Source: an uncultured Bacilli bacterium (GTDB lineage Bacteria > Bacillota_I > Bacilli_A > RF39 > UBA660). From it: 64,000 nucleotides of DNA. Shown here piece by piece: positions 6,036 through 47,244 of the stretch. The translations under genes were made by a program, and so were the position numbers. How positions within the stretch are numbered: position 1 is the stretch's first letter; each line of letters starts with the position of its first letter. Under the pieces are notes generated by a model. It did not search any database, had not been told where the DNA came from, and saw only the letters and a program-made list of their open reading frames with translations. Location: contig CAJUKB010000004.1 in the NCBI GenBank assembly GCA_910587325.1, forward strand, positions 16,988 to 80,987, written 5' to 3'.

Positions 6036-6076
6036 AAAAAAGTATGTTCTTTTTATTTAGAAATCATACTTTTTTT
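6036..6076. terminator. Hairpin (11-bp stem AAAAAAGTATG/CATACTTTTTT) between convergent genes, putative bidirectional terminator
   Basis: Inverted repeat followed by a T-run, located between the stop of 5658-6017 (+) and the stop of 6075-7358 (-). Confidence 0.45.
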
Positions 6077-7358
6077 ATATATTCTTTTTCTTACTTACGA
6101 ATAAATAACCAATTCCTACAAGAGAGACAACAGCAAGTCCACTATGTAAGAAAACATTTAAGGTACCCGTTTGAGCATTATTGGTATTTTCTACTAAGAC
6201 ATATTCACTGCAATGTTCTAAAGCAAATTCTACAAAACCATTTTTTACTTCTAAGTTTTTAGCTGCTTCTTCTAACTTACCATTTTCATTATAATAATAT
6301 AATGTTAATTTTTTGCCGTTTTTAAATTGTTCTTCCACATTTACTTTTACTTTTGTTCCAGTTGGTAAAATTCCATGATAAGCAAATTCTAATACTACTG
6401 ATTTGCGATTTTTAGAAATTAAATTTTCAATTTTCTCTTTGTTAGTACTTTTACCAACATTTATATTTAAGTTTATGTTTAAATCGGTATTTTCTATTTT
6501 GCTACCATCAAAAGTCCAAGTATATAAAAGCTTATTTTCATCATTGTATGTAGAAATATTGGCTATATAACCACTTTGTTTAAACGCTTCTAAAGTATCT
6601 TTTGTTACTCCTGTTTCTCCTATGTATAATTCTACTTCATTGTTCTCAAAAACCGGTTTTACTTCTTCTAGCATTTCTTCAAGTGTTTTTTTATCCCAAT
6701 CCTTTATTGTAATAGTTTTAAAAATTTCAACTTCTTTAAAATTGATATTACGAAAACTCATAGAGAAGCCTTCTTCGTCTCCTCCGCCACCATAAGCTTG
6801 CCAATCAGGATATTTTTGAGGAATGACTTTATCAATTAATTCGTTAAGAACATCATGACCCTTTTCAATGCTTTCTACTTTGTTTTCTTTTGTATTATAA
6901 ATGATTGTTTCATAGTCATAATTCTTATCTTGTAAAAAGATTTCTACTAAAATGTCTGTAGTTGTAAAACTTTCATTTTGCATTTCATAAAATTGAGCAA
7001 TTGTCATACCAGAGGTTAACGCTGTATTTTCATCTACAATTGTTCCTTCTTCTTTATTTGCACTACATGTTGTGGAAGTAACAATTTTTAAACCATCTGT
7101 TTCACATTTGCCATCTGAACAACTTCCACCAAATTGTTCATTATTTACATTTCTAATTAGAAGATTAATTCTCTCTGTTTGATTATTTAAAGTCATATTT
7201 TTAAGTAATTTAAATTTAACTCCTAATTTATTATCTTCTTTCTTTACACATAAATTGTTTAAATCAATAAAGTTAGAAGTCTGTTCTTCTGCTTGGACAT
7301 TTGCAGAAATACTTAAAGTAAATAATGCAAGTAATATTCCTATTATTTTCTTTTTCAT
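6075..7358 (-). CDS. Sortase-anchored surface protein with C-terminal NAQTG sorting signal (paralog of 8415-9926)
   Basis: 427 aa. Signal peptide MKKKIIGILLALFTLSISANVQA. C-terminus is NAQTGTLNV followed by a hydrophobic stretch and a KKKNI tail. The C-terminal region is homologous to that of 8415-9926. Confidence 0.7.
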   Translation of the reverse strand: MKKKIIGILLALFTLSISANVQAEEQTSNFIDLNNLCVKKEDNKLGVKFKLLKNMTLNNQTERINLLIRNVNNEQFGGSCSDGKCETDGLKIVTSTTCSANKEEGTIVDENTALTSGMTIAQFYEMQNESFTTTDILVEIFLQDKNYDYETIIYNTKENKVESIEKGHDVLNELIDKVIPQKYPDWQAYGGGGDEEGFSMSFRNINFKEVEIFKTITIKDWDKKTLEEMLEEVKPVFENNEVELYIGETGVTKDTLEAFKQSGYIANISTYNDENKLLYTWTFDGSKIENTDLNINLNINVGKSTNKEKIENLISKNRKSVVLEFAYHGILPTGTKVKVNVEEQFKNGKKLTLYYYNENGKLEEAAKNLEVKNGFVEFALEHCSEYVLVENTNNAQTGTLNVFLHSGLAVVSLVGIGYLFVSKKKNI

Positions 7359-7386: not shown

Positions 7387-7415
7387 ATTATACCCCCACC
7401 CGAAGGCTTTGTCAA
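7387..7415 (-). promoter_or_regulatory. Consensus promoter TTGACA-N17-TATAAT with an interrupted G-tract (GGGGGTGGG) in the spacer
   Basis: Minus strand: -35 TTGACA at 7410-7415, -10 TATAAT at 7387-7392, RBS AGGAAAGGAAAG before the ATG at 7358. Paralogous to the G10 promoter at 9970-10000. Confidence 0.5.
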
Positions 7416-7433: not shown

Positions 7434-8309
7434 TTAATCTATTCGTTTGGCATGAATTACCCGTCTTTTGGTCGTTCCTCTTGCACCAGCGCAAGTAGAA
7501 AGCGTAAGGATTTTATCATTCGTATTCACAGTTACATCTCTAAAGCCAAAACTTCTATTTTTTATGGTCGTTATAAATTCTTGAAAGGCATTTTTATTTT
7601 CAAAAGAAGTTGTAATATAGTATTCTTCCATTTCAATTGTATAATAACTAAAGATTTGGTATTTATGTAACGTATGTTCCAAATCAAATAAATAAATCAT
7701 ATCGGCATTTTCTTCTTCAAAGTAATTTTTTTTAAAGATATCACTTAAAGAACCAAACATTGTATTATTAGGAGTGTGATGACCAAATAAAACCACATTG
7801 TCATCTTCTAAAGAAGTATTTCGATAATCCATAAAGATACTTCCAATTGAATTTTCTTTTTTCTTAAAAGAATGATTTAGATAGTAAGTATTATCACTTG
7901 CTTGGACGATGGGATTATTAACGTATTTATGGTTTAATACTAACCATCCGACAATATCATTATTCGTTTGTTTTAATTTAGAAAAATCAATTTTCATTTC
8001 TTCCACGTTTTCTTTTTCCTCAATTCCTTCATAAACTTCTGGTGGTTCGATAAATTCATCTAAAAGTTCTTCGATTTCATTTTGATTTTCTTTTAACTCT
8101 TTTTTAAACGTAATTAATTGATACATAGAAAAAAGGAAAACACTAATAAAAAACAAAAGTAAAAGCAAACGAATTATTTTTTTATATTTCAATTTTAATT
8201 TTCTTTTTGATTTTTTTCCTTTCTTTTTTGATTTTATTTTTTGCTTATTTTTTGAAGTTTTTAAATTAGCATGAGCAATATCATTGTTTTTCTTTTTGTT
8301 TTTATTCAT
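7434..8309 (-). CDS. srtB: Class B sortase
   Basis: 291 aa. Lys-rich N-terminus plus TM. Motifs DIVGWL, LFGHH and catalytic LTLSTC, typical of SrtB-type sortases. Flanked by two proteins carrying an N-A-Q-T-G signal. Confidence 0.75.
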   Translation of the reverse strand: MNKNKKKNNDIAHANLKTSKNKQKIKSKKKGKKSKRKLKLKYKKIIRLLLLLFFISVFLFSMYQLITFKKELKENQNEIEELLDEFIEPPEVYEGIEEKENVEEMKIDFSKLKQTNNDIVGWLVLNHKYVNNPIVQASDNTYYLNHSFKKKENSIGSIFMDYRNTSLEDDNVVLFGHHTPNNTMFGSLSDIFKKNYFEEENADMIYLFDLEHTLHKYQIFSYYTIEMEEYYITTSFENKNAFQEFITTIKNRSFGFRDVTVNTNDKILTLSTCAGARGTTKRRVIHAKRID

Positions 8310-8414: not shown

Positions 8415-9926
8415 TTATTGTTCTTTTTTCTTACTTATAATTAAGTACCCTATTCCTAACAAAGAAACAACAGCAAGTCCACTATACAAGACAACATTTA
8501 AAGTACCCGTCTGCGCATTGTTATTCTTTTTATGGTATCCATCACTTGGAACCAAAACATAGGTTGAGAAATGAGTAAATGTTAATTTTACATTGCCATC
8601 GGTTGCTTTTAAATTTTCTGCTACAACTTCCATTTGGTTTGTTTCAGGATTAAGGTATAATAGGGTTAAAGTTTTATTTTGTAGATAGTCCTTTACTTTT
8701 TCATTTACTTCTTTTTCTTGGACTGTCCAGCAAGCATTATATTTGTCTGGCTCTTTCTTATAATCGTATTGACTACATTGATATTTCTCATCTAATTTTT
8801 CCCAATATAAATTTCTAATATATTGTTCAATATTCACATTTAATTCATAATTCGTTGGTAAATTACCATGGTAGGTAAAATCAATATACAAAGCGTCATT
8901 TAAATCCATTAAATTGGCAATTTTGTCTTTGTTAATGCTTGTTTTCATTGAAATTTGATGTTCATAAGTAAAGCCTTTTTCCACCGTATTTTTTATATCT
9001 TTACCATTTAAATAGTAAGTCGAAGTTCCTACACTCGTGTCTTGAATAAACAAAACGGTTAAGTCTTTTCCTTTTAAAGCGTTAATTACTTCTGATATAT
9101 CTTCTTTAGAACTTCGAACTGAAAAATTATATTTTCCATAGCCATAAATACAGTCATGTGGAGAGTCTGGCATCACTTCTTGATACTTATCCAAATGGTT
9201 CAATATTTGAGTTAAACCTGCCGCACTTGAACCCATTTCACCGAAATCTCTTGCAGATATTGTCCAGTCAATTTTTATATCTTGTTTTCCAGTAGCACTT
9301 ACTGTTATACTAGATTTGCCTAAATCTTTTGCTTTGGTTACAACTTCTACTCCTGTAGGTTCACTGCTATATCCATAAGCTTCCCACCAAGTTTTCGGTT
9401 CACTTTTATAGTTACTAAACCCATATTCATTTGTATATTCCCACCAAGTTGGTTTTGAGGTGTAAGTAGATTTGCAATATTCACTATCCTTTGAGAAGTT
9501 ACCGTTTTCATCTTGACAATATTCATAATTTTTTAAGAACTCTTCAAAAGTGGCCTTGTTAAAATCTTCAACGTATCTTTCCCAATTTTGTTTTTCATTG
9601 GCATAATCATAAGGTTTTACTTCTACATCTAAAATGTTTGTGTTACTACTAACTGCAGAAACATTAGACACATTCTCAAAAAGAATATTTTCATTGTAAG
9701 GTTTGTTGTGAAAAGGCTTGTGAGGGTCCCAACTTCCTCGTCCTCCTTCATCATTATGCGCAATGCTATATTCCATTTGCATGTTTTCCCATTTTGTAGC
9801 ACCATAAGTTCTTGAAAGCGCTCTATCTTTAAAATACTCTTCCCAGTATCCATCCGCATAAACATTTGCACTTCCTAAAAATAAAAGTGTTGCAAATATC
9901 CCCAAGTAAGTAATTATTTTTTTCAT
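8415..9926 (-). CDS. Sortase-anchored surface protein with NAQTG sorting signal
   Basis: 503 aa. Signal peptide MKKIITYLGIFATLLFLGSANVYA. C-terminus NNAQTGTLNVVLYSGLAVVSLLGIGYLIISKKKEQ. Confidence 0.7.
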   Translation of the reverse strand: MKKIITYLGIFATLLFLGSANVYADGYWEEYFKDRALSRTYGATKWENMQMEYSIAHNDEGGRGSWDPHKPFHNKPYNENILFENVSNVSAVSSNTNILDVEVKPYDYANEKQNWERYVEDFNKATFEEFLKNYEYCQDENGNFSKDSEYCKSTYTSKPTWWEYTNEYGFSNYKSEPKTWWEAYGYSSEPTGVEVVTKAKDLGKSSITVSATGKQDIKIDWTISARDFGEMGSSAAGLTQILNHLDKYQEVMPDSPHDCIYGYGKYNFSVRSSKEDISEVINALKGKDLTVLFIQDTSVGTSTYYLNGKDIKNTVEKGFTYEHQISMKTSINKDKIANLMDLNDALYIDFTYHGNLPTNYELNVNIEQYIRNLYWEKLDEKYQCSQYDYKKEPDKYNACWTVQEKEVNEKVKDYLQNKTLTLLYLNPETNQMEVVAENLKATDGNVKLTFTHFSTYVLVPSDGYHKKNNNAQTGTLNVVLYSGLAVVSLLGIGYLIISKKKEQ

Positions 9927-9969: not shown

Positions 9970-10000
9970 ATTATACCCCCCCCCCGAAAACGTTTGTCAA
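9970..10000 (-). promoter_or_regulatory. Consensus promoter TTGACA-N19-TATAAT with a G10 homopolymer in the spacer (candidate phase-variable promoter)
   Basis: Minus strand: TTGACA at 9995-10000, G10 at 9976-9985 within a 19-nt spacer, TATAAT at 9970-9975, RBS AAGGAAGGG before the ATG at 9926. Confidence 0.55.
9976..9985. repeat. C10/G10 homopolymeric tract
   Basis: Ten consecutive C on the plus strand in DNA of about 25-28 % GC. Confidence 0.9.
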
Positions 10001-10019: not shown

Positions 10020-10979
10020 CTAATTTTCTCTTTTTGTTCTTTCCTTATCCATTTCTTTAATAATATACACAGGTCTTTTCTTTGCTTCTAAATATGTTTT
10101 AGAAAGATATTCTCCAATGATTCCTAAACAAAACAATTGAATGCCACTAACCAAAAATAAAATGCAAATCATAGAAGGCCAACCACTGGTTGGGTCTCCA
10201 AATAAAATGGTTTTTAAAACAATCACTAAAATCATTATAAAAGAAATGACACAAAATAGAATACCTATAAACGCTGAAATTGTTAAAGGCATTGTTGAAA
10301 ACGAAACTATTCCCTCAATGGCATATTTAAAAAGACTAAAAAAAGACCAACTTGTTTCTCCAGCAATTCTTTCTTTGTTTTCATATTCGAGCCATTTCGT
10401 ATTAAAGCCTACAAATCCAAATAATCCTTTAGAAAAACGATTGTATTCTTTTAAACTTAAAATGGCATTTCTAACATTCTTTCGCATTAAACGATAATCT
10501 CTTGCTCCATCAACAACTTCAATGTTGCTAATTTTGTTTATCAATTTATAAAACATTCTGGCAAAAAAACTACGAATTTTTGGTTCTCCCATTCTGGTAA
10601 CTCTTCTAGTAGCAACGCAATCTACATCTTTTTCACTTTTTAAAATGGCAAACATTTCAAGGAGAAGTTCAGGAGGGTCTTGTAAGTCAGCATCCATTAA
10701 AGCAACATAATCTCCTTTGGCATATGTAAGACCTGCTAACATAGCCGCTTCTTTACCAAAATTTCTTGATAAAGAAAGATAGTGAATACTTGAATTACGT
10801 TTACATAAGTCTTTCATTATTTTTAAGGTATTGTCTTTGGAACCATCATTGACAAGAATAAGTTCAACGTCTGTTTTTTTGAGTTCTTTTTTGATTTTTA
10901 AGATTTCATGATAAAAGAGTGGCAATGCCTCTTCTTCGTTATAACAAGCAACTACAATACTTATGGTTTCCTTTTTCAT
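10020..10979 (-). CDS. GT2 polyprenyl-phosphate glycosyltransferase (GtrB/CsbB/ArnC-like)
   Basis: 319 aa. SIVVACYNEE, DGSKDNT and DADLQD motifs, with two C-terminal TM helices typical of GtrB-like enzymes. Confidence 0.8.
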   Translation of the reverse strand: MKKETISIVVACYNEEEALPLFYHEILKIKKELKKTDVELILVNDGSKDNTLKIMKDLCKRNSSIHYLSLSRNFGKEAAMLAGLTYAKGDYVALMDADLQDPPELLLEMFAILKSEKDVDCVATRRVTRMGEPKIRSFFARMFYKLINKISNIEVVDGARDYRLMRKNVRNAILSLKEYNRFSKGLFGFVGFNTKWLEYENKERIAGETSWSFFSLFKYAIEGIVSFSTMPLTISAFIGILFCVISFIMILVIVLKTILFGDPTSGWPSMICILFLVSGIQLFCLGIIGEYLSKTYLEAKKRPVYIIKEMDKERTKREN

Positions 10980-12634
10980 TTTGTTTTCTCCTTTTTAATG
11001 ATTAAATAGATTGCAAATAAACCTACAGTGAATAAACTTATTTTATTTCCTACTCTACCTAGTGTAGTATTTTCATAAGTTACTTCGATGATTGCTTCTT
11101 GATTGGCTTCCATTTCGATAAAGCCATACTGGTTTTCTTTATAGTTGAGAAAAGTACTTTCACCGTTATAACCCATCATTTTTATGGTATATCCCAAATA
11201 ATATAATCTAGGTAGTTCTAGCTTTGCATAGTTTGTATTGGTAATTTTAAATCTTAAATTAGGAGTACTGTCTTCTATAATGCTTATATCGGCGTTTCCA
11301 TCGACGACTAAAATTTCTGTACTTCGATTGTGAAAGTAATCGATATGGTTTTTTGCATTCATCGGCAGATACTCTTCTTGGTACCCCATACCAACCTGAC
11401 TTAAATCGTAATAGCTCAAATCTTCTTTATGATACGTTTGCATGAGTATCGGAAGAATGGCAAAAAGAAAACAAGAAAAAATACAAAGTGCGAGCACTTT
11501 TTTTGATTTTAATTCGTTTAGAGCATAGTAAGACAATATGCTTAATCCAAAACATGTAAGTACTCCTAAGCGATAAGGAAATTGAATCATCAGTAAAAAG
11601 TTTGGCATTAAAAACCACGGGAATAAATGGGAAGAAAACCATATTCCTAGACATGTACAAATAACGCCCAAACAAAATAAAAAATCATTCTGAAGTTTTT
11701 CTTTAAATTTGTGTCTCTTCTTTAATTCATAAAGCAAATAAATGACTAGACCAAGAGCTACCCAATTTAGCATGTGAAAACCTATTTTTTTGCCACCAAG
11801 CAAGAATTGAAATAAGAACAAAGCATTGCCATACACACCAAAACGATTAGACATTTCGCCCTTTGTAAAAGCAACGTAATTTCCATTTAACAGATGAGTA
11901 AATAGTGGAATTAGAAACGGAAGGCTGATTAAAATGACTAAAAAGGTTGCGCATAATAAACGAAGAATAGTTTTTTTATTCCAAACTTTTTTAAAATGAA
12001 AAATAAGAAATATGCTTAAGAAAAGAGTTACGTAAATACTCATTACTAAGTGGGAGTTCAGTAGTCCAACGTATCCTAAGACAAAATAAAAATAAAATTT
12101 TTTAGACTGATTGTGGAACAAATAATAAATACCTAAAAAAATGAGAGGTAAAAATACAAAAACAAAAGATTCCGCTAATGCATCACGATATAAATAATCG
12201 TAAATTTTATAAGGTGCCGTTATATAAAATAGTGTAGCAATAAAGGATAAGTTCTTATGTTTTGTAATGGTTTTCATAAAAGTATACATCGTAATACCCG
12301 ATAAAAAGTTCAGTAAAAAATCGGTTATTTTGATGGATGTAAAAATAGTTCCAGGGGTATATTTATAAATAAGTGCTGTTATAAAATGAGGAAGATTGGG
12401 ATAGAAAATATTGGTTCCATAGCCAAAGTTATTGGCAATGAACGGAAGAATTTTTAAGTTTGCTATATTGGACCATTGTAAATTTTTAATAAAAGAGAGA
12501 ACATTAGCTACATGAAAACCCGTATCATGGCCATAAAAATAGTTATTACTTAATAGTGGAAAAAGTAGAAAGATTGAAATTAAAAAAATAAAAAAATAAT
12601 ATTTATCTATTTTAATTGGTATTCTTTTGTGCAT
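10976..12634 (-). CDS. Polytopic membrane protein, putative GT-C type glycosyltransferase (GtrC/YfhO-like partner of GtrB)
   Basis: 552 aa with more than 10 predicted TM segments. Start overlaps the stop of the GtrB-like gene. RBS AAAGGAGAAA. Confidence 0.45.
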   Translation of the reverse strand: MHKRIPIKIDKYYFFIFLISIFLLFPLLSNNYFYGHDTGFHVANVLSFIKNLQWSNIANLKILPFIANNFGYGTNIFYPNLPHFITALIYKYTPGTIFTSIKITDFLLNFLSGITMYTFMKTITKHKNLSFIATLFYITAPYKIYDYLYRDALAESFVFVFLPLIFLGIYYLFHNQSKKFYFYFVLGYVGLLNSHLVMSIYVTLFLSIFLIFHFKKVWNKKTILRLLCATFLVILISLPFLIPLFTHLLNGNYVAFTKGEMSNRFGVYGNALFLFQFLLGGKKIGFHMLNWVALGLVIYLLYELKKRHKFKEKLQNDFLFCLGVICTCLGIWFSSHLFPWFLMPNFLLMIQFPYRLGVLTCFGLSILSYYALNELKSKKVLALCIFSCFLFAILPILMQTYHKEDLSYYDLSQVGMGYQEEYLPMNAKNHIDYFHNRSTEILVVDGNADISIIEDSTPNLRFKITNTNYAKLELPRLYYLGYTIKMMGYNGESTFLNYKENQYGFIEMEANQEAIIEVTYENTTLGRVGNKISLFTVGLFAIYLIIKKEKTK

Positions 12635-12655: not shown

Positions 12656-12686
12656 ATTATAACCCCCCCCCCAATGAAAAAGACAA
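12656..12686 (-). promoter_or_regulatory. Promoter-like TTGTCT-N19-TATAAT with a G10 tract in the spacer
   Basis: Minus strand: TTGTCT at 12681-12686, G10 at 12663-12672, TATAAT at 12656-12661, RBS AAAGGAG before the ATG at 12634. Confidence 0.5.
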
Positions 12687-32683: not shown

Positions 32684-33930
32684 GTGGCAAAAATTGCAAA
32701 AACATTGAAAGAATTAAAAGAAAATTTAGAAATAGAAGATTACATAGAAGAAACAGAAATAGAAAATTATGATTTGCATATTCTAACAAATGAGATAAAT
32801 GAAGAAGCATCTTATTTAATGGATAAACGAGAAGAAGAATATATAAAACACTCTTTAGAAGATATAGTAATCATAGTAATATTAGGATTATTTGCAAATA
32901 GTAACACCTTTGTAGAAATTGAAATATTTGCAAAAAAACATTATGAATGGCTTAGGAATTATCTAGAACTTTCTTATGGTTTGCCTTCTATTTGTACAAT
33001 TAAAAGAGTAATAGCAGCATTGAATCCGAAAGAATTAGAGGAAATGTGTAATCATGTTTTTTTAAACTTTGTAAAAGTAACTCAAAAACCAATATATGTA
33101 AAAAATGGATTAAAATTGATGGATATAAATAGTTTAGATGGAAAAACGGCAAATAATTCTAAAAGAAACACAATAGAAGGATATATAAAACCAACAAATG
33201 CGATGAGTGCCTATTCTGTTGTTAATGAAAAATGTTTAGCAACAGAATTTATAAGTGAAAAGACAAATGAAATACCAACATGTCCAAAATTATTAAAAAG
33301 GTTAAATATCAAAGATGTAGCAATCACATTTGATGCTTTAAACACCCAAAAAGATACAATAGATTACATAGTAAAAAATGAGGGATATTATGTTGCACCC
33401 ATAAAAGATAATCAAAGCATACTAAAGGAAGATTTGGAACTATATTTTCAAGATTTATATTTAATAAAAGTTGGAAATGCCAAAGTGTATGAAGAAATAG
33501 AAAAATCTCATAATCAAGCAGAAAAAAGAACATATATATTTACGAATGATATAGATTGGATATACTAAAAAGAAAAATGGTCAGATTTAAAAAGTATAGG
33601 TGTACTTATAAAAGAGATAAATGGAGAAGAAAAAGAAAGAAAATATTTCATAAGCAATATAAAGGCAAATCATATAGAAATATTATCTAAAATAATTAGA
33701 AATGAATGGAGCATAGAGAATAAGTTACATTGGTATTTAGACATGGTATTTTTAGAAGATAAGAATAAATGTTATATTGAGAATAGTCAAAAAAACTTAA
33801 ATATAATGAGAAAATTTTGTCTTGGAATATTAAAAATAGTGAAATCTCATTACAATATGAGCATGAATTCTATTCGTTTTCAATTGAGTATTGATTTTGA
33901 AAATGAAATAGAGCAACTTCTTAAATTGCT
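32684..33930 (+). pseudogene. ISAs1-family (H-repeat-associated) transposase with an internal TAA stop
   Basis: N-terminal DDE_Tnp_1_assoc-like region (DIVIIVILGLFANSNTFVEIEIFAKKHYEWLRNYLELSYGLPSICTIKRVIAAL). A single in-frame TAA at 33566-33568 (DWIY*KEKWSDLKSIG) is followed by the conserved C-terminus (WSIENKLHWYLDMVFLEDK...). Confidence 0.65.
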
Positions 33931-41238: not shown

Positions 41239-42393
41239 TTACCAAATTTTTTTGTAACTCTCTACTACTAGTTTCCATGTATATTCTTTTTTTATTCTAT
41301 CTTTGGCAAGATTCTCATATTTTTTGATTGTTTTGTCATCAAATTTTTCTACTTTTTCAATCTGTCTTTTTAAGTCTCCTTTTTGTTTGCTGAAATAGAA
41401 AGAAGACATCATACCAACTTCTACATTGTAAATTGCATTAAATAAAATATTTAATTTTGTGCTTGCTAGTGCTTCTAAAAGAGAAGGATTTGTTCCTCCT
41501 GCACTATGTCCATGAATATAAGCATAAGCATTTCGTCTTATGTAAAGAAGCGTTGCATGATCGTAAACGGAACCAATAAATTTAATTCTTGCATCACTCG
41601 AAAAGCACGTTTTCTTTTCTAGTTCTTTATAAAACTTATTTTCTTCTACATTGGATACAATGACTAAATCCCTTTTAGTATCGCTACTCATGAACTCTTT
41701 TATCATAAGTTCATAGTTATTTTCTGGTACAAATCGCCCGACAATTAGATAATAGTTATTTTCACTTATTTGATATTTTTTATACAATTCTTTAACAATA
41801 TTTGTTTTACACTCTTTTTCATTTAAATAGGCCCCGTAAGGAATAAAATAAGATGGTTTATGAAACTTTTTATATTTTGTATCTATGTATTCTTTAATCG
41901 CTTTTGAATCACTTATTATTCCATCACTGTGCTTAACCATACAGTATTCACTTATTTTAAAACACTTTTTTATCCACCATGCCCATTTATCACGCATCCA
42001 TTCAAGTCCATCAGGATTTAAATAAATTTTGATTCCTTTCTTTTTTAATGGACGTACTAAAAAAGGATAAAACGGCCCCATACGACAACCCAGTACGTAA
42101 ACCATTGAATTTTCTAAATTATTTTTTTTAATGTATTTTTTCATTCGTTTTAATGCTACTATTGCATAGATAAACATGGTTACAAATCCAACTTTAGGGG
42201 AATAGACTTGCAAACAAGAAACCTGATCTTTTTCGATTATTTTTTTATTCTCTTTTTTATTGTGAGTCAGTTCTGGAACATGAAACTTGGTATTTTTATC
42301 ACAATAGTTTTCTATTAAATTGGTTACAAAGGTTTCCCAACCCCCGTAATTAGATTTGTATCCACGTGCTCCAATTATTATAATATTTTTCAT
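41239..42393 (-). CDS. GT4 glycosyltransferase with a DUF1972-type N-terminal domain
   Basis: IIIIGARGYKSNYGGWETFV N-terminus and a C-terminal GT4 region. I take the start at the Met preceded by RBS AAGAGGAAA (42393). The ORF track's upstream Met is at 42417. Confidence 0.6.
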   Translation of the reverse strand: MKNIIIIGARGYKSNYGGWETFVTNLIENYCDKNTKFHVPELTHNKKENKKIIEKDQVSCLQVYSPKVGFVTMFIYAIVALKRMKKYIKKNNLENSMVYVLGCRMGPFYPFLVRPLKKKGIKIYLNPDGLEWMRDKWAWWIKKCFKISEYCMVKHSDGIISDSKAIKEYIDTKYKKFHKPSYFIPYGAYLNEKECKTNIVKELYKKYQISENNYYLIVGRFVPENNYELMIKEFMSSDTKRDLVIVSNVEENKFYKELEKKTCFSSDARIKFIGSVYDHATLLYIRRNAYAYIHGHSAGGTNPSLLEALASTKLNILFNAIYNVEVGMMSSFYFSKQKGDLKRQIEKVEKFDDKTIKKYENLAKDRIKKEYTWKLVVESYKKIW

Positions 42394-42404: not shown

Positions 42405-43328
42405 TTAATAATTCCATTTTATTTTATTAAAGCAATTTATACCCCCCCCCCGTTTGAATTTGTTATAGAGATTACGAATTTTACTAATGTATGTCCAACT
42501 TTTGCTATTTAATATTTGTTTTAAAGAATCATGAGATTTAGTCAATTCATTATTTAATTTTTTTATTATTGTTTCTTGTTTTTGATTTTGCATTTTCATA
42601 TTATTGAAATCTTTTTCTAGTGTCGTTATTTTTTCATTTAGTTCCTTTATGATAACTTCTTTGCTTTTATTATGTTCGTGGATAAAAAAGTAATCGTTGT
42701 TATACCATAAAACATTTATGAATTGTACTTTTTTGTATTTGTGTTTCCAAAGGGAGTACATAAAGGAAAGTTGATCTCTTCTACTGTATCGTTTTACCAT
42801 ATTCCACCAACAATTTTGTACTTTTTTAATTTTGCTATTATTAGTTTTAAATGCAAAAAAATTATTAGCAGTAAGTCCATAATGTTCGGGAAAATTTTCT
42901 TTTTTTAAAAATGTCATTTCTTCCTCAATAATCTTTTTATCGTCTTTTTTCCAATCAATACATACTATTGCCTCTTCATAAATACAATCTCTATCGGAAT
43001 GGATAAGAGAAAAAAAGTCGTAATTTTTAAGGTCACATTCTTTTTTAATAAACTCACTAACTGGTTTTCTTAATTCTATATTAGCGTCCATATAAATGGC
43101 CAAATCATAATTTTTAAAGATTTCTTCACAACCAAGAATTTTGATTTTTCTTTCTAATCTAATGAAATCTAAGAGTTCTGGATTATCTAAGGACATAATT
43201 TTCCAAGTTTTGCTTTTAATGTTTGGGTTATTTGTAAAACAATAATAATCTATTTCTTTATCTATATACTTTATTTCTTTTAAGGTATCATAATCTCCAG
43301 TTATTGCTGTATATACCATAGTTTTCAT
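42405..43328 (-). CDS. Putative glycosyltransferase-like protein (DUF616/TOD1-MUCI70-like) with a coiled-coil C-terminus
   Basis: 307 aa. N-terminal AITGDYD motif. The C-terminal Gly-Gly-Gly is encoded by the G10 tract. Confidence 0.4.
   Translation of the reverse strand: MKTMVYTAITGDYDTLKEIKYIDKEIDYYCFTNNPNIKSKTWKIMSLDNPELLDFIRLERKIKILGCEEIFKNYDLAIYMDANIELRKPVSEFIKKECDLKNYDFFSLIHSDRDCIYEEAIVCIDWKKDDKKIIEEEMTFLKKENFPEHYGLTANNFFAFKTNNSKIKKVQNCWWNMVKRYSRRDQLSFMYSLWKHKYKKVQFINVLWYNNDYFFIHEHNKSKEVIIKELNEKITTLEKDFNNMKMQNQKQETIIKKLNNELTKSHDSLKQILNSKSWTYISKIRNLYNKFKRGGGINCFNKIKWNY
42442..42451. repeat. C10/G10 homopolymeric tract inside the 3' end of CDS 42405-43328, followed on the minus strand by TATAAA
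   Basis: Encodes RGGGI 16 codons before the stop. On the minus strand G10-TATAAA lies 42-60 nt upstream of the ATG of 41239-42393. Confidence 0.9.
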
Positions 43329-44334: not shown

Positions 44335-44888
44335 TGGCTCTAGATAATTTAGTGGGAATCTAAAATTAAAGATTTCTAAGTAAATAAAAGGGAAAATAGG
44401 TATTTTTTAGATTAATTTCAAAACACCTGTTTTTTTATGGAGAATACGCTTTATTTTTTTGCTTTTCTATCTTTTTTAGTTATTCCACTTATTTTTCCAT
44501 TCAATATGTACATTACCCTTAGTCTAAAAAATCAAAATTTTGATATCCAACTCCAACTCTTTTGATTACTTTTATTTTGTTGTTTAATCCTTCTGCAAAT
44601 CCATTACTAAGTCTTTCATCTATAAATGAATTTACTATTTAAGGTAACCAATTTTCTATTGTTTTATTTGCTTCTATCATTTCCTCCATTTCATAAATTT
44701 TTACTATTTCTGCCCATTCTCTTCATTCTATTTCTACATACTCGTAATTTGTTGTATATGATACATTAAAAAAAAGAGATAACTTTATTCGTTATCTCCT
44801 CACCTAATTTTCTAGTTATCATACAAAAAGTCCCCACTAAAATTTCTTGATGCTGATTTTTTTATCCCCACTAAATTATCTAGAGCCA
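44335..44888. mobile_element. ISL3-family derived non-autonomous (MITE-like) element of about 550 bp
   Basis: 22-bp perfect terminal inverted repeats TGGCTCTAGATAATTTAGTGGG at 44335-44356 and reverse-complemented at 44867-44888. GGCTCT is the typical ISL3 terminus. Flanking 8-bp near-identical direct repeats AAAAAATA/AAAACATA. An internal minus-strand remnant SNGFAEGLNNKIKVIKRVGVGYQNFDF matches an ISL3 transposase C-terminus. Confidence 0.55.
44767..44798 (-). terminator. Rho-independent terminator (GAGATAAC-loop-GTTATCTC plus T8), probably terminating the lic operon
   Basis: 8-bp GC-containing stem with a 7-nt loop, followed by 8 T on the minus strand, downstream of the BCCT gene stop (44988) and inside the ISL3 remnant. 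Confidence 0.55.
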
Positions 44889-44987: not shown

Positions 44988-46517
44988 TTATTCTTTTTTG
45001 TTGTTTTTAGTAGGTTCTTCTAAATACCGTTTAGCGTCTTTAATAAAACTAATCACAATCATAATTATCACTATTCCTATTGGAAAAGCCGCGACTATGC
45101 TCACAGATTGTAAATTATTCATAGAACTTTGTGAAAATACCAAAGCGATTGGTAATAAAATTAATAAGATGCACCATATTAATTGCATCATTCTATGCGG
45201 TTTTTCATCTTTAGCAAGTTTGTGATAACTATAGCATGATGCCGTATAAGCAATGGAATCGAAAGAAGTTGCGTAAAATGCAATCATTGTAATTAATAAT
45301 AATATTAAAATAAACGGAAAACATGGAATGGTTTTAATTATAGAAATAATAATATTATAAATATCTCCACCATTTTGATACATTGCCACAAAATCAAATT
45401 GCCCACTCATTTGAAGGCCTAAAGAATGATTTCCTAATATTATAAAACTAATAATTGTAGACCCTACACCAAAGATATATCCCCCAATAATCGTTTGTTT
45501 AACAGTTCTTCCTTTTGATATATTACCAATAAAAAAGGGAGCAGCAACACACCAAACCATCCAATAAGCCCAATAATAAATTGTCCAATTTTGTGGAAAA
45601 CTTGTTTCTCTTAAAGGATCTGTTGTCGTCGATAATCCTATAAAATTTTCTATCATTCGTCCTAATGAAGAGAAACCATTTTCAATAATAAATCGCCCTT
45701 GTCCTCCAAAAAATAAAACAAATAATAAAATACCAAAAAATAAATAAATACAAATTTTTGCAAGTAAACTCATTCCTTTAAATCCATGTAAAAGCGTATA
45801 CGTATATACAATACAAGTTATTAAAAGAATAATTATGGTAATTACTGTCCTGCTTATGGTTATATGAAATACTTCTCCAATAATTGCAGCCATTAAAGGA
45901 GTAGCAACGCTAAATGTTGTAGCAGTTCCAGCAAGTAATGCAAATACTGCTAGCAAATCTACTATTCTTCCTGGTAATTTATCTGTAAATTTTCCAAGTA
46001 AAGGCCTACACGCTTCTGAATATTTTTGTTTTTCTCTTTTTCTTACATGTAACATAAAGCCAAAAGCAATTGCAAGAACTAAATAAAAACTCCACGGAAT
46101 AAAACTCCAATGAAATATTGGAAATACGCTTGCCCAATCTTCCATATTTCCTAAATGCGCAATATGACTTTCTCCTGCATACATAATCCATTCCGAAAAT
46201 GAATAGAATAAGATGTCTGCCGCAAGTCCACACGTAAACATCATAGCCCCCCAAGTAAAGAAGGAATATTTTGGTTTTTCATTTTTTTTGCCTAATACAA
46301 TATTTCCATACTTCGAAAACGCAATAATTAAGGACAAAATAAATATCCCTAAACCCATTATCAAATAATATACACCAAAAGTATCCCCAAAAATAAATCT
46401 AATTTTACTTAAAACTAGATTAGATTCTGTAGGTAGAAAAATAAATAGGACGCATAGAGCAATAATTAAAACAAGTGGCATTAAAGTGATTAGCCAATCA
46501 ATTTTCTTTGTTTTCAT
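44988..46517 (-). CDS. BCCT-family (betaine/carnitine/choline) transporter, probable choline importer
   Basis: BCCT signature WTIYYWAYWMVWCVAAPFFIGNISKGRT, about 12 TM helices. Start taken at the internal Met MKTKKIDWL. The ORF track starts at 46565. Confidence 0.7.
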   Translation of the reverse strand: MKTKKIDWLITLMPLVLIIALCVLFIFLPTESNLVLSKIRFIFGDTFGVYYLIMGLGIFILSLIIAFSKYGNIVLGKKNEKPKYSFFTWGAMMFTCGLAADILFYSFSEWIMYAGESHIAHLGNMEDWASVFPIFHWSFIPWSFYLVLAIAFGFMLHVRKREKQKYSEACRPLLGKFTDKLPGRIVDLLAVFALLAGTATTFSVATPLMAAIIGEVFHITISRTVITIIILLITCIVYTYTLLHGFKGMSLLAKICIYLFFGILLFVLFFGGQGRFIIENGFSSLGRMIENFIGLSTTTDPLRETSFPQNWTIYYWAYWMVWCVAAPFFIGNISKGRTVKQTIIGGYIFGVGSTIISFIILGNHSLGLQMSGQFDFVAMYQNGGDIYNIIISIIKTIPCFPFILILLLITMIAFYATSFDSIAYTASCYSYHKLAKDEKPHRMMQLIWCILLILLPIALVFSQSSMNNLQSVSIVAAFPIGIVIIMIVISFIKDAKRYLEEPTKNNKKE

Positions 46518-47244
46518 TTTTTTCGCCTGCTTTCTTAAAATTAGCGTAACTGTTATCAATTGCAATTAATTCTTGATAATTATCTATTTCTACTATATCT
46601 TCCTTTTCTATTTCATAAACGTGTAAATCAAATTCTTCAGGATAACAAAACATTGCAATATTATCCCAATAAATGGTAGTATTGTTTTTATTTATGAACT
46701 CTTCTTCCACATATTTTTTTAATTTTTTTCCATCTTCTTTTGTCCATCTTGAAATGCTCCACAAACGGTATCCATCTTTTCCACCCTCAATACTACAATT
46801 TGTAATTTTTCCACAGTTATCAGTTTGCAAAAACCACTCATTTGTATATTCTTTGCACCACGAACAACTATATCCAGATTTTTCAAAGTATGGATTTAAT
46901 ATGCTTGGATTTTTAATTATTAAGTCGGCGTCTGTAATAATAATTTCTTCTAAAAATTCTCTAGCAACATACAAAGAAGAAATATTGTTGGTTTCTTCAT
47001 AATATTTATTTTCAATTAATTTTATATTCGGATAGTCTTCTAACAAAATATTAAATTTATCTTTTAGGTATCCAACAACAATATATATTTCTTGTATTCC
47101 ATTTTGGTATAAACCCTTTATAATAGTATCAATCATTCTTACGCCATTTACTCTTATTAATGGTTTTGGCGTTTCAATTGTAACAGGGTTTAATCTGCTT
47201 CCCTTGCCCGCTGCTAAAATAAGGGCTCTTTTTATTTTATTCAT
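46498..47244 (-). CDS. licC: CTP:phosphocholine cytidylyltransferase (LicC-like nucleotidyltransferase)
   Basis: 248 aa. ALILAAGKGSRL nucleotidyltransferase motif, in the same operon as a choline kinase and LicD. Confidence 0.65.
   Translation of the reverse strand: MNKIKRALILAAGKGSRLNPVTIETPKPLIRVNGVRMIDTIIKGLYQNGIQEIYIVVGYLKDKFNILLEDYPNIKLIENKYYEETNNISSLYVAREFLEEIIITDADLIIKNPSILNPYFEKSGYSCSWCKEYTNEWFLQTDNCGKITNCSIEGGKDGYRLWSISRWTKEDGKKLKKYVEEEFINKNNTTIYWDNIAMFCYPEEFDLHVYEIEKEDIVEIDNYQELIAIDNSYANFKKAGEKNENKEN

What the first reader, a model, noticed from the sequence alone, without database searches (positions are those of the whole stretch)
9970..10000. G10 homopolymer inside the spacer of a perfect TTGACA/TATAAT promoter upstream of a sortase-anchored surface protein
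On the minus strand the sequence reads TTGACA-aacgttttc-GGGGGGGGGG-TATAAT, with a good RBS and the ATG of the 503-aa NAQTG protein 44 nt downstream. The current spacer is 19 nt, and loss of two G would give the optimal 17. A 10-nt G/C run in DNA of about 25-28 % GC is highly non-random. Together with the three sister tracts in this window it strongly suggests slipped-strand phase variation of promoter strength, as in Neisseria and Haemophilus contingency loci. I do not know this mechanism to be characterised for a sortase substrate in a low-GC Gram-positive organism.
Basis: partly seen in the sequence, partly recalled or inferred. Interest (0 to 1): 0.85.

Follow-up and report, generated by a model that had tools for sequence, protein, structure and literature searches.

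The report
Poly-G switch promoters for surface genes
An uncultured low-GC gut bacterium places unstable runs of about ten G's inside the promoters of two wall-anchored surface proteins and two cell-wall sugar operons; this is the classic pathogen "contingency locus" trick, seen here in a commensal-type Gram-positive and apparently common in gut metagenomes.

Summary
On the minus strand the sequence reads TTGACA(10000-9995)-aacgttttc-G10(9985-9976)-TATAAT(9975-9970). The spacer is 19 bp, and the ATG of a 503-aa NAQTG-anchored protein lies at 9926.

The window (27.7 % GC) has only three G/C runs of 7 or more. All three are exactly G10, and each sits directly 5' of a -10 box. A fourth copy, before the paralogous 427-aa protein, is interrupted (GGGTGGGGG, spacer 17).

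About 20 independent metagenome assemblies of the same species were compared. The flanks are invariant, but the tracts vary:
- T1: G9, G10 or G12
- T2: G10 or G11
- T3: G9 to G11
- T4: G9 to G12

Samples with 0 SNPs over 2.35 kb still differ in tract length. Seven contig ends fall at or next to tracts. A/T7 runs never vary (0 of 376 observations).

A related species (52 % protein identity) keeps the same architecture, with G7-G8 (spacer 16-17) and G9-G10.

Slipped-strand variation of promoter spacing is therefore well supported. The effect on transcription is inferred, not shown. The mechanism is classic (porA, opc, C. acnes PPA1880), so this is a new member of a known kind. A broader scan suggests such promoters are widespread upstream of secreted proteins in gut Firmicutes.

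The parts
9995..10000 (-). T1 -35 hexamer, TTGACA (6/6 match to consensus)
   Evidence: Read directly. Invariant in 12 other samples.
9976..9985 (-). T1 poly-G tract (G10). With aacgttttc (9986-9994) it forms a 19-bp spacer.
   Evidence: Length is G9 in 1 sample, G10 in 11 and G12 in 1. One contig starts exactly at the tract.
9970..9975 (-). T1 -10 hexamer, TATAAT (6/6)
8415..9926 (-). 503-aa secreted protein with a C-terminal NNAQTG sorting signal, a hydrophobic segment and a KKK tail. It belongs to an orphan family.
   Evidence: sequence. No Pfam or NCBIfam hit. 34 homologues, all unnamed. AF2 model has pLDDT 82.9, with no PDB fold match at E<=0.001.
7434..8309 (-). Class B sortase. It has its own promoter-like site, TTGACA-18-TAAGAT, at 8366-8337.
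   Evidence: TIGR03064 scores 188.9 bits against a cut-off of 153.75. Pfam Sortase. Promoter scan.
7387..7415 (-). T4 promoter: TTGACA (7415-7410), aagccttc, interrupted tract GGGTGGGGG (7401-7393), TATAAT (7392-7387). The spacer is 17. This is probably a phase-locked variant.
   Evidence: In other samples the tract is pure G9 (1), G10 (7), G11 (1) or G12 (1).
6075..7358 (-). 427-aa paralogous NNAQTG-anchored surface protein
   Evidence: It shares the C-terminal region with the 503-aa protein (29 % identity in the alignment).
12656..12686 (-). T2 promoter-like site: TTGTCT (12686-12681), ttttcatt, G10 (12672-12663), t, TATAAT (12661-12656). The spacer is 19, and the ATG at 12634 lies 21 nt after the -10.
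   Evidence: The tract is G10 in 8 samples and G11 in 1.
10020..12634 (-). Two-gene operon downstream of T2. It encodes a 552-aa polytopic membrane protein (weak YfhO/GT-C likeness) and a 319-aa GT2 of the polyprenyl-phosphate glycosyltransferase type (PgfS/CsbB/GtrB-like).
   Evidence: Pfam YfhO scores 22.3 bits, below the 28.5 cut-off. Glycos_transf_2 scores 120.7 bits. NCBIfam PgfS scores 313.7 bits, below the 500 cut-off.
42436..42466 (-). T3 promoter-like site: ATAACA (42466-42461), aattcaaac, G10 (42451-42442), TATAAA (42441-42436). The spacer is 19. The tract also lies in the last codons of the upstream 307-aa TOD1-like glycosyltransferase ORF (42405-43328).
   Evidence: The tract is G9 (1), G10 (7) or G11 (2). 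Two contigs end in or 12 nt after the tract. The upstream ORF becomes 296, 307 or 300 aa with G9, G10 or G11.
41239..42393 (-). 384-aa DUF1972/GT1 rhamnosyltransferase (Cps2T/RgpA-like). The RBS-supported ATG is at 42393. It is followed by ABC-transporter and GT2 genes of a cell-wall polysaccharide cluster.
   Evidence: Pfam DUF1972 scores 169.7 bits. NCBIfam Cps2T scores 458 bits, below the 500 cut-off. Gene calls in 10 other assemblies start at this ATG.

Best explanation
The G10 run is a hypermutable simple-sequence repeat in the spacer of a sigma-A-type promoter. It is one of four such promoters in this window.

Proposed mechanism: slipped-strand mispairing during replication adds or removes G's. 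This changes the distance, and the rotational phasing, between the -35 and -10 hexamers. Transcription of the downstream gene is thereby turned up or down, heritably and reversibly.

The four switches control:
- T1 and T4: two paralogous NAQTG surface proteins that are anchored by a class B sortase with its own separate promoter.
- T2: a GT-C-like membrane protein plus a polyprenyl-phosphate GT2 pair, i.e. a surface-glycosylation module.
- T3: a rhamnosyltransferase/ABC-transporter block of a wall-polysaccharide cluster.

Together they would give a clonal population combinatorial variation of its surface.

What is shown: the architecture, its conservation, and tract-length polymorphism on identical backgrounds.

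What is inferred: that these are the active promoters, that 17 bp (G8 at T1) is the high-expression state, that the modal G10 is a low or intermediate state, and that switching is frequent within a clone.
For: (1) T1 and T4 have perfect 12/12 hexamers flanking the tract, and each tract abuts a -10 box 21-43 nt before an RBS and ATG.

(2) The only G/C runs of 7 or more in 64 kb are these. About 3e-4 runs of 10 or more are expected by composition.

(3) Tract lengths in independent assemblies: T1 G9/G10/G12; T2 G10/G11; T3 G9/G10/G11; T4 G9/G10/G11/G12. That is 9 non-modal lengths out of about 40 observations. A/T7 runs gave 0 of 376, and A/T8 runs gave 3 of 69, all three at one terminator T-run.

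(4) Five samples with 0 SNPs over 2,350 nt carry T1 = 12/10/10/10 and T4 = 11/10/10/12. A second 0-SNP group carries T1 = 10/10/9.

(5) Seven contig ends lie in, or within 14 nt of, a tract: L087, L090, L091, L109, L110 and both ends of L113. This is the signature of an assembly-graph branch caused by mixed lengths within a sample.

(6) A related species (52 % protein identity) has cTTGACA-aaaagtttc-G8-TATAAT (spacer 17) in three samples and G7 in one. It also has TTGACA-aaagttttc-G10/G9-TATAAT before its second paralogue.

(7) In the window strain T4 carries a G-to-T interruption that leaves exactly 17 bp, as expected for a locked-ON allele.

Run lengths peaked at 8-9, which is not a geometric decay. 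The same promoters carried different G numbers in different samples. 75 % of downstream ORFs (G>=9) had a signal-peptide-like N-terminus, against a 26 % background, by a crude heuristic.

(9) Precedent: a G tract in the promoter spacer of C. acnes PPA1880, expressed only at 18 bp (PMC3224659).
Against: No transcript data exist, so neither the TSS nor any dependence of expression on length is shown.

The modal state is G10 at all four loci (spacers 19, 19, 19, 18). It is nominally weak and is not explained. It could reflect mutational equilibrium, selection for low expression in the gut, or a different optimum for G-tract spacers.

T2 and T3 have only 4/6 -35 matches. T3 is intra-operonic and overlaps the end of a coding sequence.

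No terminator separates the GT2 gene from the 503-aa gene, so read-through could supply transcription whatever the state of T1.

Some length differences could be Illumina or assembly homopolymer errors. In the 4.6x assembly L112 both tracts are one G shorter than in the 12x assembly L111.

More distant homologues (39-45 % identity) have no tract upstream.
Confidence: 0.75

Rival explanations
1. The tracts are mutational hot spots, but G10 itself is the functional, selected form. Examples would be a binding site for a regulator, or a rigid A-form-like spacer that makes an 18-19 bp promoter work. Length variants would then be mildly deleterious noise rather than a switch.
For: G10 is the mode at all four loci and in about 78 % of observations. 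All three intact tracts in the window are exactly 10. The G at -14 gives a partial extended -10, which could lessen dependence on the -35 (read).
Against: The related species keeps the same promoter with G8 or G7 at one locus and G10 or G9 at the other. The window's own T4 is a 9-nt interrupted tract giving 17 bp. Metagenome homologues of the architecture show G7 to G12. No fixed length is conserved. A protein-binding site would not tolerate a range of 7-12.
Confidence: 0.12
2. The length differences are sequencing or assembly artefacts of long G homopolymers in Illumina data, and the tract is in fact stable.
For: Homopolymer indel errors and coverage drops at poly-G are known. The low-coverage assembly L112 (4.6x) is one G shorter at both tracts than L111 (12x). 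Contig breaks at tracts could reflect error-induced loss of coverage.
Against: Both expansions (+1, +2) and contractions are seen. Within one 61.8-kb contig (SRR35979018), T1 is G12 and T4 is G11 while T2 and T3 are G10, so there is no uniform bias. The G6 run and the A/T7 runs never vary. The interrupted allele is a substitution, not a length error. An artefact cannot explain why G10 runs exist only next to -10 boxes in a 27.7 % GC genome.
Confidence: 0.06
3. At T3, and possibly elsewhere, the tract acts through the upstream coding sequence or on a read-through mRNA rather than as a promoter spacer. Routes would be a frameshift of the C-terminal tail, altered translational coupling, or an RNA-level G-run.
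For: The T3 tract lies in the last codons of the 307-aa TOD1-like glycosyltransferase. G9, G10 and G11 give products of 296, 307 and 300 aa. T3 has only a 4/6 -35 and a TATAAA -10. The genes are co-oriented in one cluster.
Against: All three frames stop within 1-17 codons after the tract, so only a short tail changes (read). T1, T2 and T4 are intergenic. The position directly 5' of a -10 box, 42 nt before an RBS-supported ATG, is the same as at T1. Rfam finds no RNA family anywhere in the window.
Confidence: 0.07

Closest known systems
Neisseria meningitidis porA and opc promoters (poly-G / poly-C tract between or at the -35 and -10; own knowledge)
   Same: A homopolymeric G/C tract inside the promoter spacer. 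The number of repeats sets the spacing and hence graded expression of a surface protein. Several such loci occur per genome, concentrated in surface genes.
   Different: The host is a Gram-negative pathogen, and the products are outer-membrane proteins. There the expression-versus-length relation is measured; here it is only inferred. Here the hexamers are perfect consensus, and the modal spacer is 18-19 rather than 16-17.
Cutibacterium (Propionibacterium) acnes PPA1880 (PMC3224659)
   Same: A Gram-positive organism with a guanine tract in the putative promoter spacer of a secreted or surface protein. Strains carry G11, G13 or G15, giving spacers of 18, 20 or 23 nt. The protein is secreted only by the 18-nt strain.
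   Different: A high-GC actinobacterium. It is a single locus. It was also only inferred, from three strains. No sortase B or paralogue pair is involved.
Bifidobacterium breve sortase-dependent pilus G-tract switch (PMC9187656)
   Same: Replication slippage at a G tract switches sortase-dependent surface structures in a gut commensal.
   Different: That tract acts as an ON/OFF frameshift within the pilus locus, not as a promoter spacer. The host is a high-GC actinobacterium. Those are pili assembled by class C sortases, not a class B sortase substrate.
Mycoplasma hyorhinis vlp promoters (poly-A tract in the spacer) and Treponema pallidum tpr poly-G promoter tracts (own knowledge; tpr tracts mentioned in PMC7864442)
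   Same: A homopolymer within or next to the promoter controls transcription of variable surface proteins. In mycoplasmas, this occurs in a low-GC, Firmicute-related lineage.
   Different: The repeat base is poly-A in Mycoplasma, and the organisms are wall-less or spirochaetal. The products are lipoproteins or outer-membrane proteins, not sortase substrates or wall-glycan genes.
Campylobacter jejuni poly-G contingency loci (PMC8355987, PMC8437040)
   Same: A low-GC genome (about 30 %) in which G8-G11 tracts stand out and cluster in surface-glycan and surface-structure genes. The modal lengths of G9-G10 are similar.
   Different: In C. jejuni most tracts are intragenic and act by frameshift. 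Here all four sit in promoter spacers.

Membership tests
SSR-mediated phase-variable promoter (spacer-length type) | A simple-sequence repeat long enough to be hypermutable (G/C run of about 7-8 or more) | tested here: met
   G10 at 9976-9985. These are the only G/C runs of 7 or more in 64 kb of 27.7 % GC DNA.
SSR-mediated phase-variable promoter (spacer-length type) | The repeat lies between recognisable -35 and -10 elements upstream of a gene | tested here: met
   Perfect TTGACA and TATAAT flank the tract at T1 and T4. T2 and T3 have 4/6 -35 matches at the same 19-bp distance. This is sequence-level only; the TSS is not mapped.
SSR-mediated phase-variable promoter (spacer-length type) | Repeat number differs between closely related isolates while the flanks are conserved | tested here: met
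   G9/G10/G12 at T1 and G9 to G12 at the sister loci. Haplotype groups with 0 SNPs differ in tract length. The A/T7 control gave 0 of 376.
SSR-mediated phase-variable promoter (spacer-length type) | High-frequency, reversible length change within a clonal population | tested here: inconclusive
   Seven contig ends fall at or next to tracts, which suggests mixed lengths within samples. No reads could be examined, and error-induced breaks are not excluded.
SSR-mediated phase-variable promoter (spacer-length type) | Transcription or expression depends on the repeat number | not testable with these tools
   No transcript or reporter data are available. Indirect support comes from the locked T4 allele, which has exactly 17 bp, and from the related species, which has G8 = 17 bp in 3 of 4 samples.
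SSR-mediated phase-variable promoter (spacer-length type) | The controlled genes encode surface or host/phage-interaction functions | tested here: met
   Two sortase-signal proteins, a GT-C-like plus GT2 pair, and a Cps2T-like rhamnosyltransferase with an ABC transporter.
Class B sortase with dedicated substrates | The enzyme matches the class B sortase model above its curated cut-off | tested here: met
   TIGR03064 scores 188.9 bits against a cut-off of 153.75 for 7434-8309.
Class B sortase with dedicated substrates | Adjacent substrates carry a C-terminal sorting signal: an NxxTG-type motif, a hydrophobic segment and a basic tail | tested here: met
   NNAQTGTLNV...SKKKEQ and NNAQTGTLNV...SKKKNI were read in both paralogues. 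The motif is conserved in the family consensus NNAQT. Cleavage and anchoring themselves are not testable here.
CsbB/GtrB-type GT2 plus YfhO/GT-C surface-glycosylation pair (PgfS-like) | The GT2 matches the polyprenyl-phosphate glycosyltransferase family | tested here: inconclusive
   Pfam Glycos_transf_2 is clear (120.7 bits). The best NCBIfam hit, PgfS, scores 313.7 bits, below the equivalog cut-off of 500.
CsbB/GtrB-type GT2 plus YfhO/GT-C surface-glycosylation pair (PgfS-like) | The partner is a YfhO/GT-C polytopic membrane glycosyltransferase | tested here: inconclusive
   Pfam YfhO scores 22.3 bits, below the gathering cut-off of 28.5, and DUF6541 scores 21.9 bits, below 29. A 4-nt overlap with the GT2 gene suggests an operon.

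The most novel reading that the evidence does not exclude
Poly-G-in-spacer promoters are not a peculiarity of this organism. They would be a widespread, so far overlooked class of contingency loci in gut Firmicutes across a GC range of 26-68 %, placed preferentially before secreted, lipoprotein and sortase-anchored proteins. In this organism four of them would form a small 'phasome' that combinatorially varies two sortase-B-anchored paralogues and two wall-glycan modifications. This would complement the invertible promoters that currently dominate thinking about phase variation in the gut microbiome.
Probability: 0.45. Interest if true: 0.7.

Novelty: new member of a known kind. Interest (0 to 1): 0.55.

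Why it matters
Phase variation in the gut microbiota is known mainly from invertible promoters in Bacteroides and Clostridioides. SSR contingency loci are known mainly from Gram-negative pathogens and mycoplasmas.

This locus gives sequence-level population evidence that an uncultured low-GC Gram-positive gut bacterium uses poly-G promoter switches for surface proteins and wall glycans. The metagenome scan suggests the same design is common in gut Firmicutes.

If so, the following would vary stochastically within strains:
- surface antigenicity
- phage receptors
- IgA targets

Metagenomic assemblies would also systematically break, or mis-call, at exactly these regulatory sites.

The claim is directly testable from existing SRA reads.

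Tried and rejected
(1) Protein function of the 503-aa and 427-aa proteins. Pfam, NCBIfam and a PDB Foldseek search of a good AF2 model (pLDDT 82.9) gave nothing significant. Their function stays unknown beyond 'sortase-B-anchored surface protein'.

(2) A family scan of the metagenome-contig collection with alignment A1 found no relative.

(3) The genome-contig scan with the GT2 gene returned only relatives of 71 % identity or less, from MAGs labelled Tenericutes, Bacilli or Clostridia. The species could not be named. Only one of the low-GC relatives (L010) had a G10 run, in a different context.

(4) More distant homologues (P0013 and P0026, 41-44 % identity) have no G tract upstream, so the switch is confined to a sub-clade.

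(5) An alternative sigma factor. GGGTAT resembles a SigB -10 box, but no GTTTAA-like -35 lies 12-15 nt upstream (read). Rejected.

(6) A G-quadruplex. A single G10-G12 run cannot supply four G-runs with loops. Rejected by inspection.

(7) A known RNA element. Rfam at gathering thresholds gave 0 hits in the window.

(8) The apparent split of the YfhO-like gene in MAG GCA_948716395.1 is a scaffold gap of N's, not biology.

(9) Five completed literature searches (a sixth failed on term syntax) found no description of poly-G promoter switches in low-GC gut Firmicutes. The library is incomplete, so absence is weak evidence.

Full report
**1. Observation**

Reading the minus strand gives TTGACA (10000-9995), aacgttttc (9994-9986), G10 (9985-9976) and TATAAT (9975-9970). 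The spacer is therefore 19 bp. A further 43 nt, carrying a purine-rich RBS, lead to the ATG at 9926.

The ORF 8415-9926 encodes 503 aa. It has an N-terminal signal peptide and a C-terminal NNAQTG motif, followed by a hydrophobic segment and KKKEQ.

The window is 27.7 % GC. Its only G/C runs of 7 or more are three runs of exactly 10 (+ strand C10 at 9976-9985, 12663-12672 and 42442-42451). There are two runs of 6 and none of 7-9. By composition about 3e-4 runs of 10 or more are expected in 64 kb, so the tracts are not chance. The tool's promoter scan omitted T1 only because it accepts spacers of 16-18 nt.

**2. Anatomy of the four sites**

All tracts are G on the sense strand and abut a -10 box.

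| Site | Architecture (minus strand) | Spacer | Downstream gene |
|---|---|---|---|
| T1 | TTGACA-N9-G10-TATAAT | 19 | 503-aa protein |
| T2 | TTGTCT-N8-G10-t-TATAAT (12686-12656) | 19 | ATG at 12634, 21 nt after the -10: 552-aa polytopic membrane protein overlapping a 319-aa GT2 |
| T3 | ATAACA-N9-G10-TATAAA (42466-42436) | 19 | RBS-supported ATG at 42393, 42 nt after the -10: DUF1972/GT1 rhamnosyltransferase |
| T4 | TTGACA-aagccttc-GGGTGGGGG-TATAAT (7415-7387) | 17 | 427-aa paralogue with the same NNAQTG signal |

Supporting annotation:
- T2 operon. The membrane protein shows only a weak YfhO likeness (22.3 bits, below the cut-off). The GT2 is PgfS/CsbB/GtrB-like (313.7 bits, below the 500 cut-off).
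- T3 gene. The rhamnosyltransferase is Cps2T-like (458 bits, below the 500 cut-off). It is followed by ABC-transporter, GT2 and acyltransferase genes.
- T3 overlap. The T3 tract also lies in the last codons of the upstream 307-aa TOD1-like glycosyltransferase. That ORF becomes 296 or 300 aa with G9 or G11.
- T4 was found only by comparison with other assemblies.
- Between the two surface-protein genes lies a class B sortase (TIGR03064, 188.9 bits against a cut-off of 153.75). It has its own promoter-like site, TTGACA-18-TAAGAT.

**3. Is the tract hypermutable?**

Exact-protein look-ups retrieved the locus from a MAG (GCA_948716395.1) and about 20 Logan/SRA assemblies. The flanks are identical or differ by single SNPs. 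The tracts vary as follows:

| Tract | G9 | G10 | G11 | G12 | Other |
|---|---|---|---|---|---|
| T1 | 1 | 11 | 0 | 1 | |
| T2 | 0 | 8 | 1 | 0 | |
| T3 | 1 | 7 | 2 | 0 | |
| T4 | 1 | 7 | 1 | 1 | interrupted allele in the window |

Controls in the same loci:
- 46 A/T7 runs: 0 of 376 observations varied.
- 10 A/T8 runs: 3 of 69 varied, all at one T-run.
- The single G6 run: 0 of 9 varied.

Over 2,350 nt downstream of T1, five samples are identical (0 SNPs) yet carry T1 = 12/10/10/10 and T4 = 11/10/10/12. One of them also carries T2 = 11. A second 0-SNP group carries T1 = 10/10/9. Tract changes therefore occur much faster than substitutions.

Seven contig ends fall in, or within 14 nt of, a tract: the L090 start, the L091, L087, L109 and L110 ends, and both ends of L113. 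This is what a k=31 assembly graph does when two lengths coexist in a sample. Error-driven loss of coverage at poly-G is an alternative explanation.

**4. Conservation of the architecture**

The family of the 503-aa protein has 34 members, all unnamed. The 52 %-identical homologue (P0004) sits in a different genomic context, after copper/cation-efflux genes. It keeps cTTGACA-aaaagtttc-Gn-TATAAT, with G8 (spacer 17) in three samples and G7 in one. One of those contigs starts at the tract. Its second paralogue, downstream of the sortase, has TTGACA-aaagttttc-G10 or G9-TATAAT.

So the hexamers and the 9-nt non-G part are conserved, while the G number ranges from 7 to 12 across loci and species. 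This argues against G10 being a fixed recognition element. Homologues at 41-44 % identity (P0013, P0026) lack a tract.

**5. Mechanism proposed**

Slipped-strand mispairing at the G run changes the -35/-10 spacing, and with it promoter strength. This is inferred from established knowledge of sigma-70/sigma-A promoters and of porA/opc-type loci.

Two observations fit 17 bp as the favoured 'on' geometry:
- The only allele in which the tract is broken by a substitution (window T4) has exactly 17 bp.
- The related species' first locus is at 17 bp in three of four samples.

It remains unexplained why G10, giving 18-19 bp, is the mode at all four loci. Possible reasons are:
- mutational equilibrium around G9-G10, as in Campylobacter;
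- selection for low expression in the gut;
- residual activity through the G at -14, a partial extended -10;
- altered geometry of poly(dG).poly(dC).

No terminator separates the GT2 gene from the 503-aa gene, so read-through from T2 may add a basal level of transcription.

**6. Rivals**

- Artefact. The low-coverage assembly L112 is one G shorter at both tracts than L111, so some single-step differences may be errors. An artefact does not explain +1/+2 expansions, non-uniform changes within one contig, the invariant controls, the substitution allele, or the existence and placement of the tracts.
- G10 as a fixed functional element. This is contradicted by the 7-12 range.
- Coding or RNA-level action at T3. 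This is possible as a secondary effect, because only a short C-terminal tail changes.
- A SigB-type promoter (GGGTAT) was rejected because no suitable -35 is present.
- A G-quadruplex was rejected on length.
- Rfam finds nothing in the window.

**7. Wider occurrence (beyond the finding)**

G-run lengths were:

| G-run length | 7 | 8 | 9 | 10 | 11 | 12 |
|---|---|---|---|---|---|---|
| Stretches | 26 | 34 | 37 | 15 | 5 | 3 |

This is not the geometric decay expected by chance. Contig GC spans 26-68 %.

Several promoters recur in different samples with different G numbers. One example is CGCTTGACAAATCTGC-G10 against G9. Another is ATATTGACAGGTTGGCA-G9 against G7.

Downstream ORFs often begin with signal peptides or lipoboxes, or end in sortase signals (NPRTG, VPKTG). 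By a crude hydrophobic-window heuristic:
- 36 of 48 (75 %) of the G>=9 cases had a signal-peptide-like N-terminus;
- 23 of 37 (62 %) of the G7-8 cases did;
- 26 % of all ORFs of 100 aa or more in the same loci did.

The scan was restricted to 15-17 bp spacers, and the heuristic is rough, so this is a lead and not a result.

**8. Comparison with the known**

The mechanism class is classic:
- N. meningitidis porA/opc, H. influenzae hif, M. hyorhinis vlp and T. pallidum tpr (own knowledge);
- C. acnes PPA1880, where G11/13/15 give spacers of 18/20/23 nt and the protein is secreted only by the 18-nt strain (PMC3224659);
- B. breve sortase-dependent pili, switched by a G tract (PMC9187656).

The five completed literature searches and a 2025 review of phase variation (PMC11868660) gave no example in low-GC gut Firmicutes. 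For Clostridioides they mention only invertible promoters.

I therefore rate this a new member of a known kind. The paired sortase-B substrates, the glycan operons under the same type of switch, and the apparent breadth in gut metagenomes are the interesting parts.

**9. Limits**

The nearest species representatives are MAGs labelled Tenericutes, Bacilli or Clostridia, at 71 % GT2 identity or less.
- No reads, transcripts or experiments were available.
- The surface proteins have no recognisable domain or fold match.

Noticed in passing
window 7387-7415 (minus strand): A fourth promoter of the same design sits before the 427-aa paralogue. In this strain its tract is interrupted (GGGTGGGGG), which leaves exactly 17 bp. 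Ten other samples have pure G9 to G12 here, and an eleventh contig (SRR31203351) ends inside the tract. It looks like a natural phase-locked allele.
   Followed up: yes
L124-L243 (metagenome contigs): The TTGACA-N-G(7-12)-TATAAT architecture is frequent in metagenome contigs of 26-68 % GC. G number is polymorphic between samples, and the downstream ORFs are enriched for signal-peptide, lipoprotein or sortase-signal proteins (75 % against a 26 % background by a crude heuristic).
   Followed up: partly
L111 5960-5967 and 8876-8885; L112 to L114: A related species (52 % identical surface protein) carries the same two-paralogue-plus-sortase cassette in a different neighbourhood, after copper/cation-efflux genes. 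It has G8/G7 before the first gene and G10/G9 before the second. Contig L113 is bounded by the two tracts.
   Followed up: yes
window 44768-44775 (minus strand T8): The T-run of an intrinsic-terminator-like hairpin (GAGATAAC-gaataaa-GTTATCTC-T8), about 210 nt after the BCCT transporter gene, is T8 in 7 samples and T7 in 3. It is the only A/T run of 7-8 in the compared regions that varies.
   Followed up: partly
window 44988-49024: A lic-like gene set is present: a BCCT transporter, a LicC-like nucleotidyltransferase, and a 595-aa fusion of HTH, nucleotidyltransferase and choline kinase domains. It suggests phosphocholine decoration of a wall polymer, next to the polysaccharide cluster that contains T3. 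No repeat tract was seen there.
   Followed up: no
window 32684-33568 (+ strand): A DDE transposase (DDE_Tnp_1 plus DDE_Tnp_1_assoc) is the only sizeable + strand gene inside the otherwise minus-strand glycan-biosynthesis region.
   Followed up: no
window 8415-9926 and 6075-7358: The NAQTG surface-protein family has no Pfam or NCBIfam match. A confident AF2 model (pLDDT 82.9, pTM 0.73) has no PDB fold match at E<=0.001. It is an orphan family of gut-MAG surface proteins, always next to a class B sortase.
   Followed up: partly
L001 / L099 (GCA_948716395.1): The apparent split of the YfhO-like gene (403 + 137 aa) in this MAG is caused by a run of N's (a scaffold gap) at a position equivalent to window ~11432-11438. 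It is not a frameshift. The loss of the DUF6020 gene call in the same MAG was not examined.
   Followed up: yes
L010 6715-6724: A related low-GC MAG ('uncultured Bacilli', 71 % GT2 identity) has a G10 run in a different context (ctcctcaG10tttacatttt), not next to a TATAAT box.
   Followed up: no
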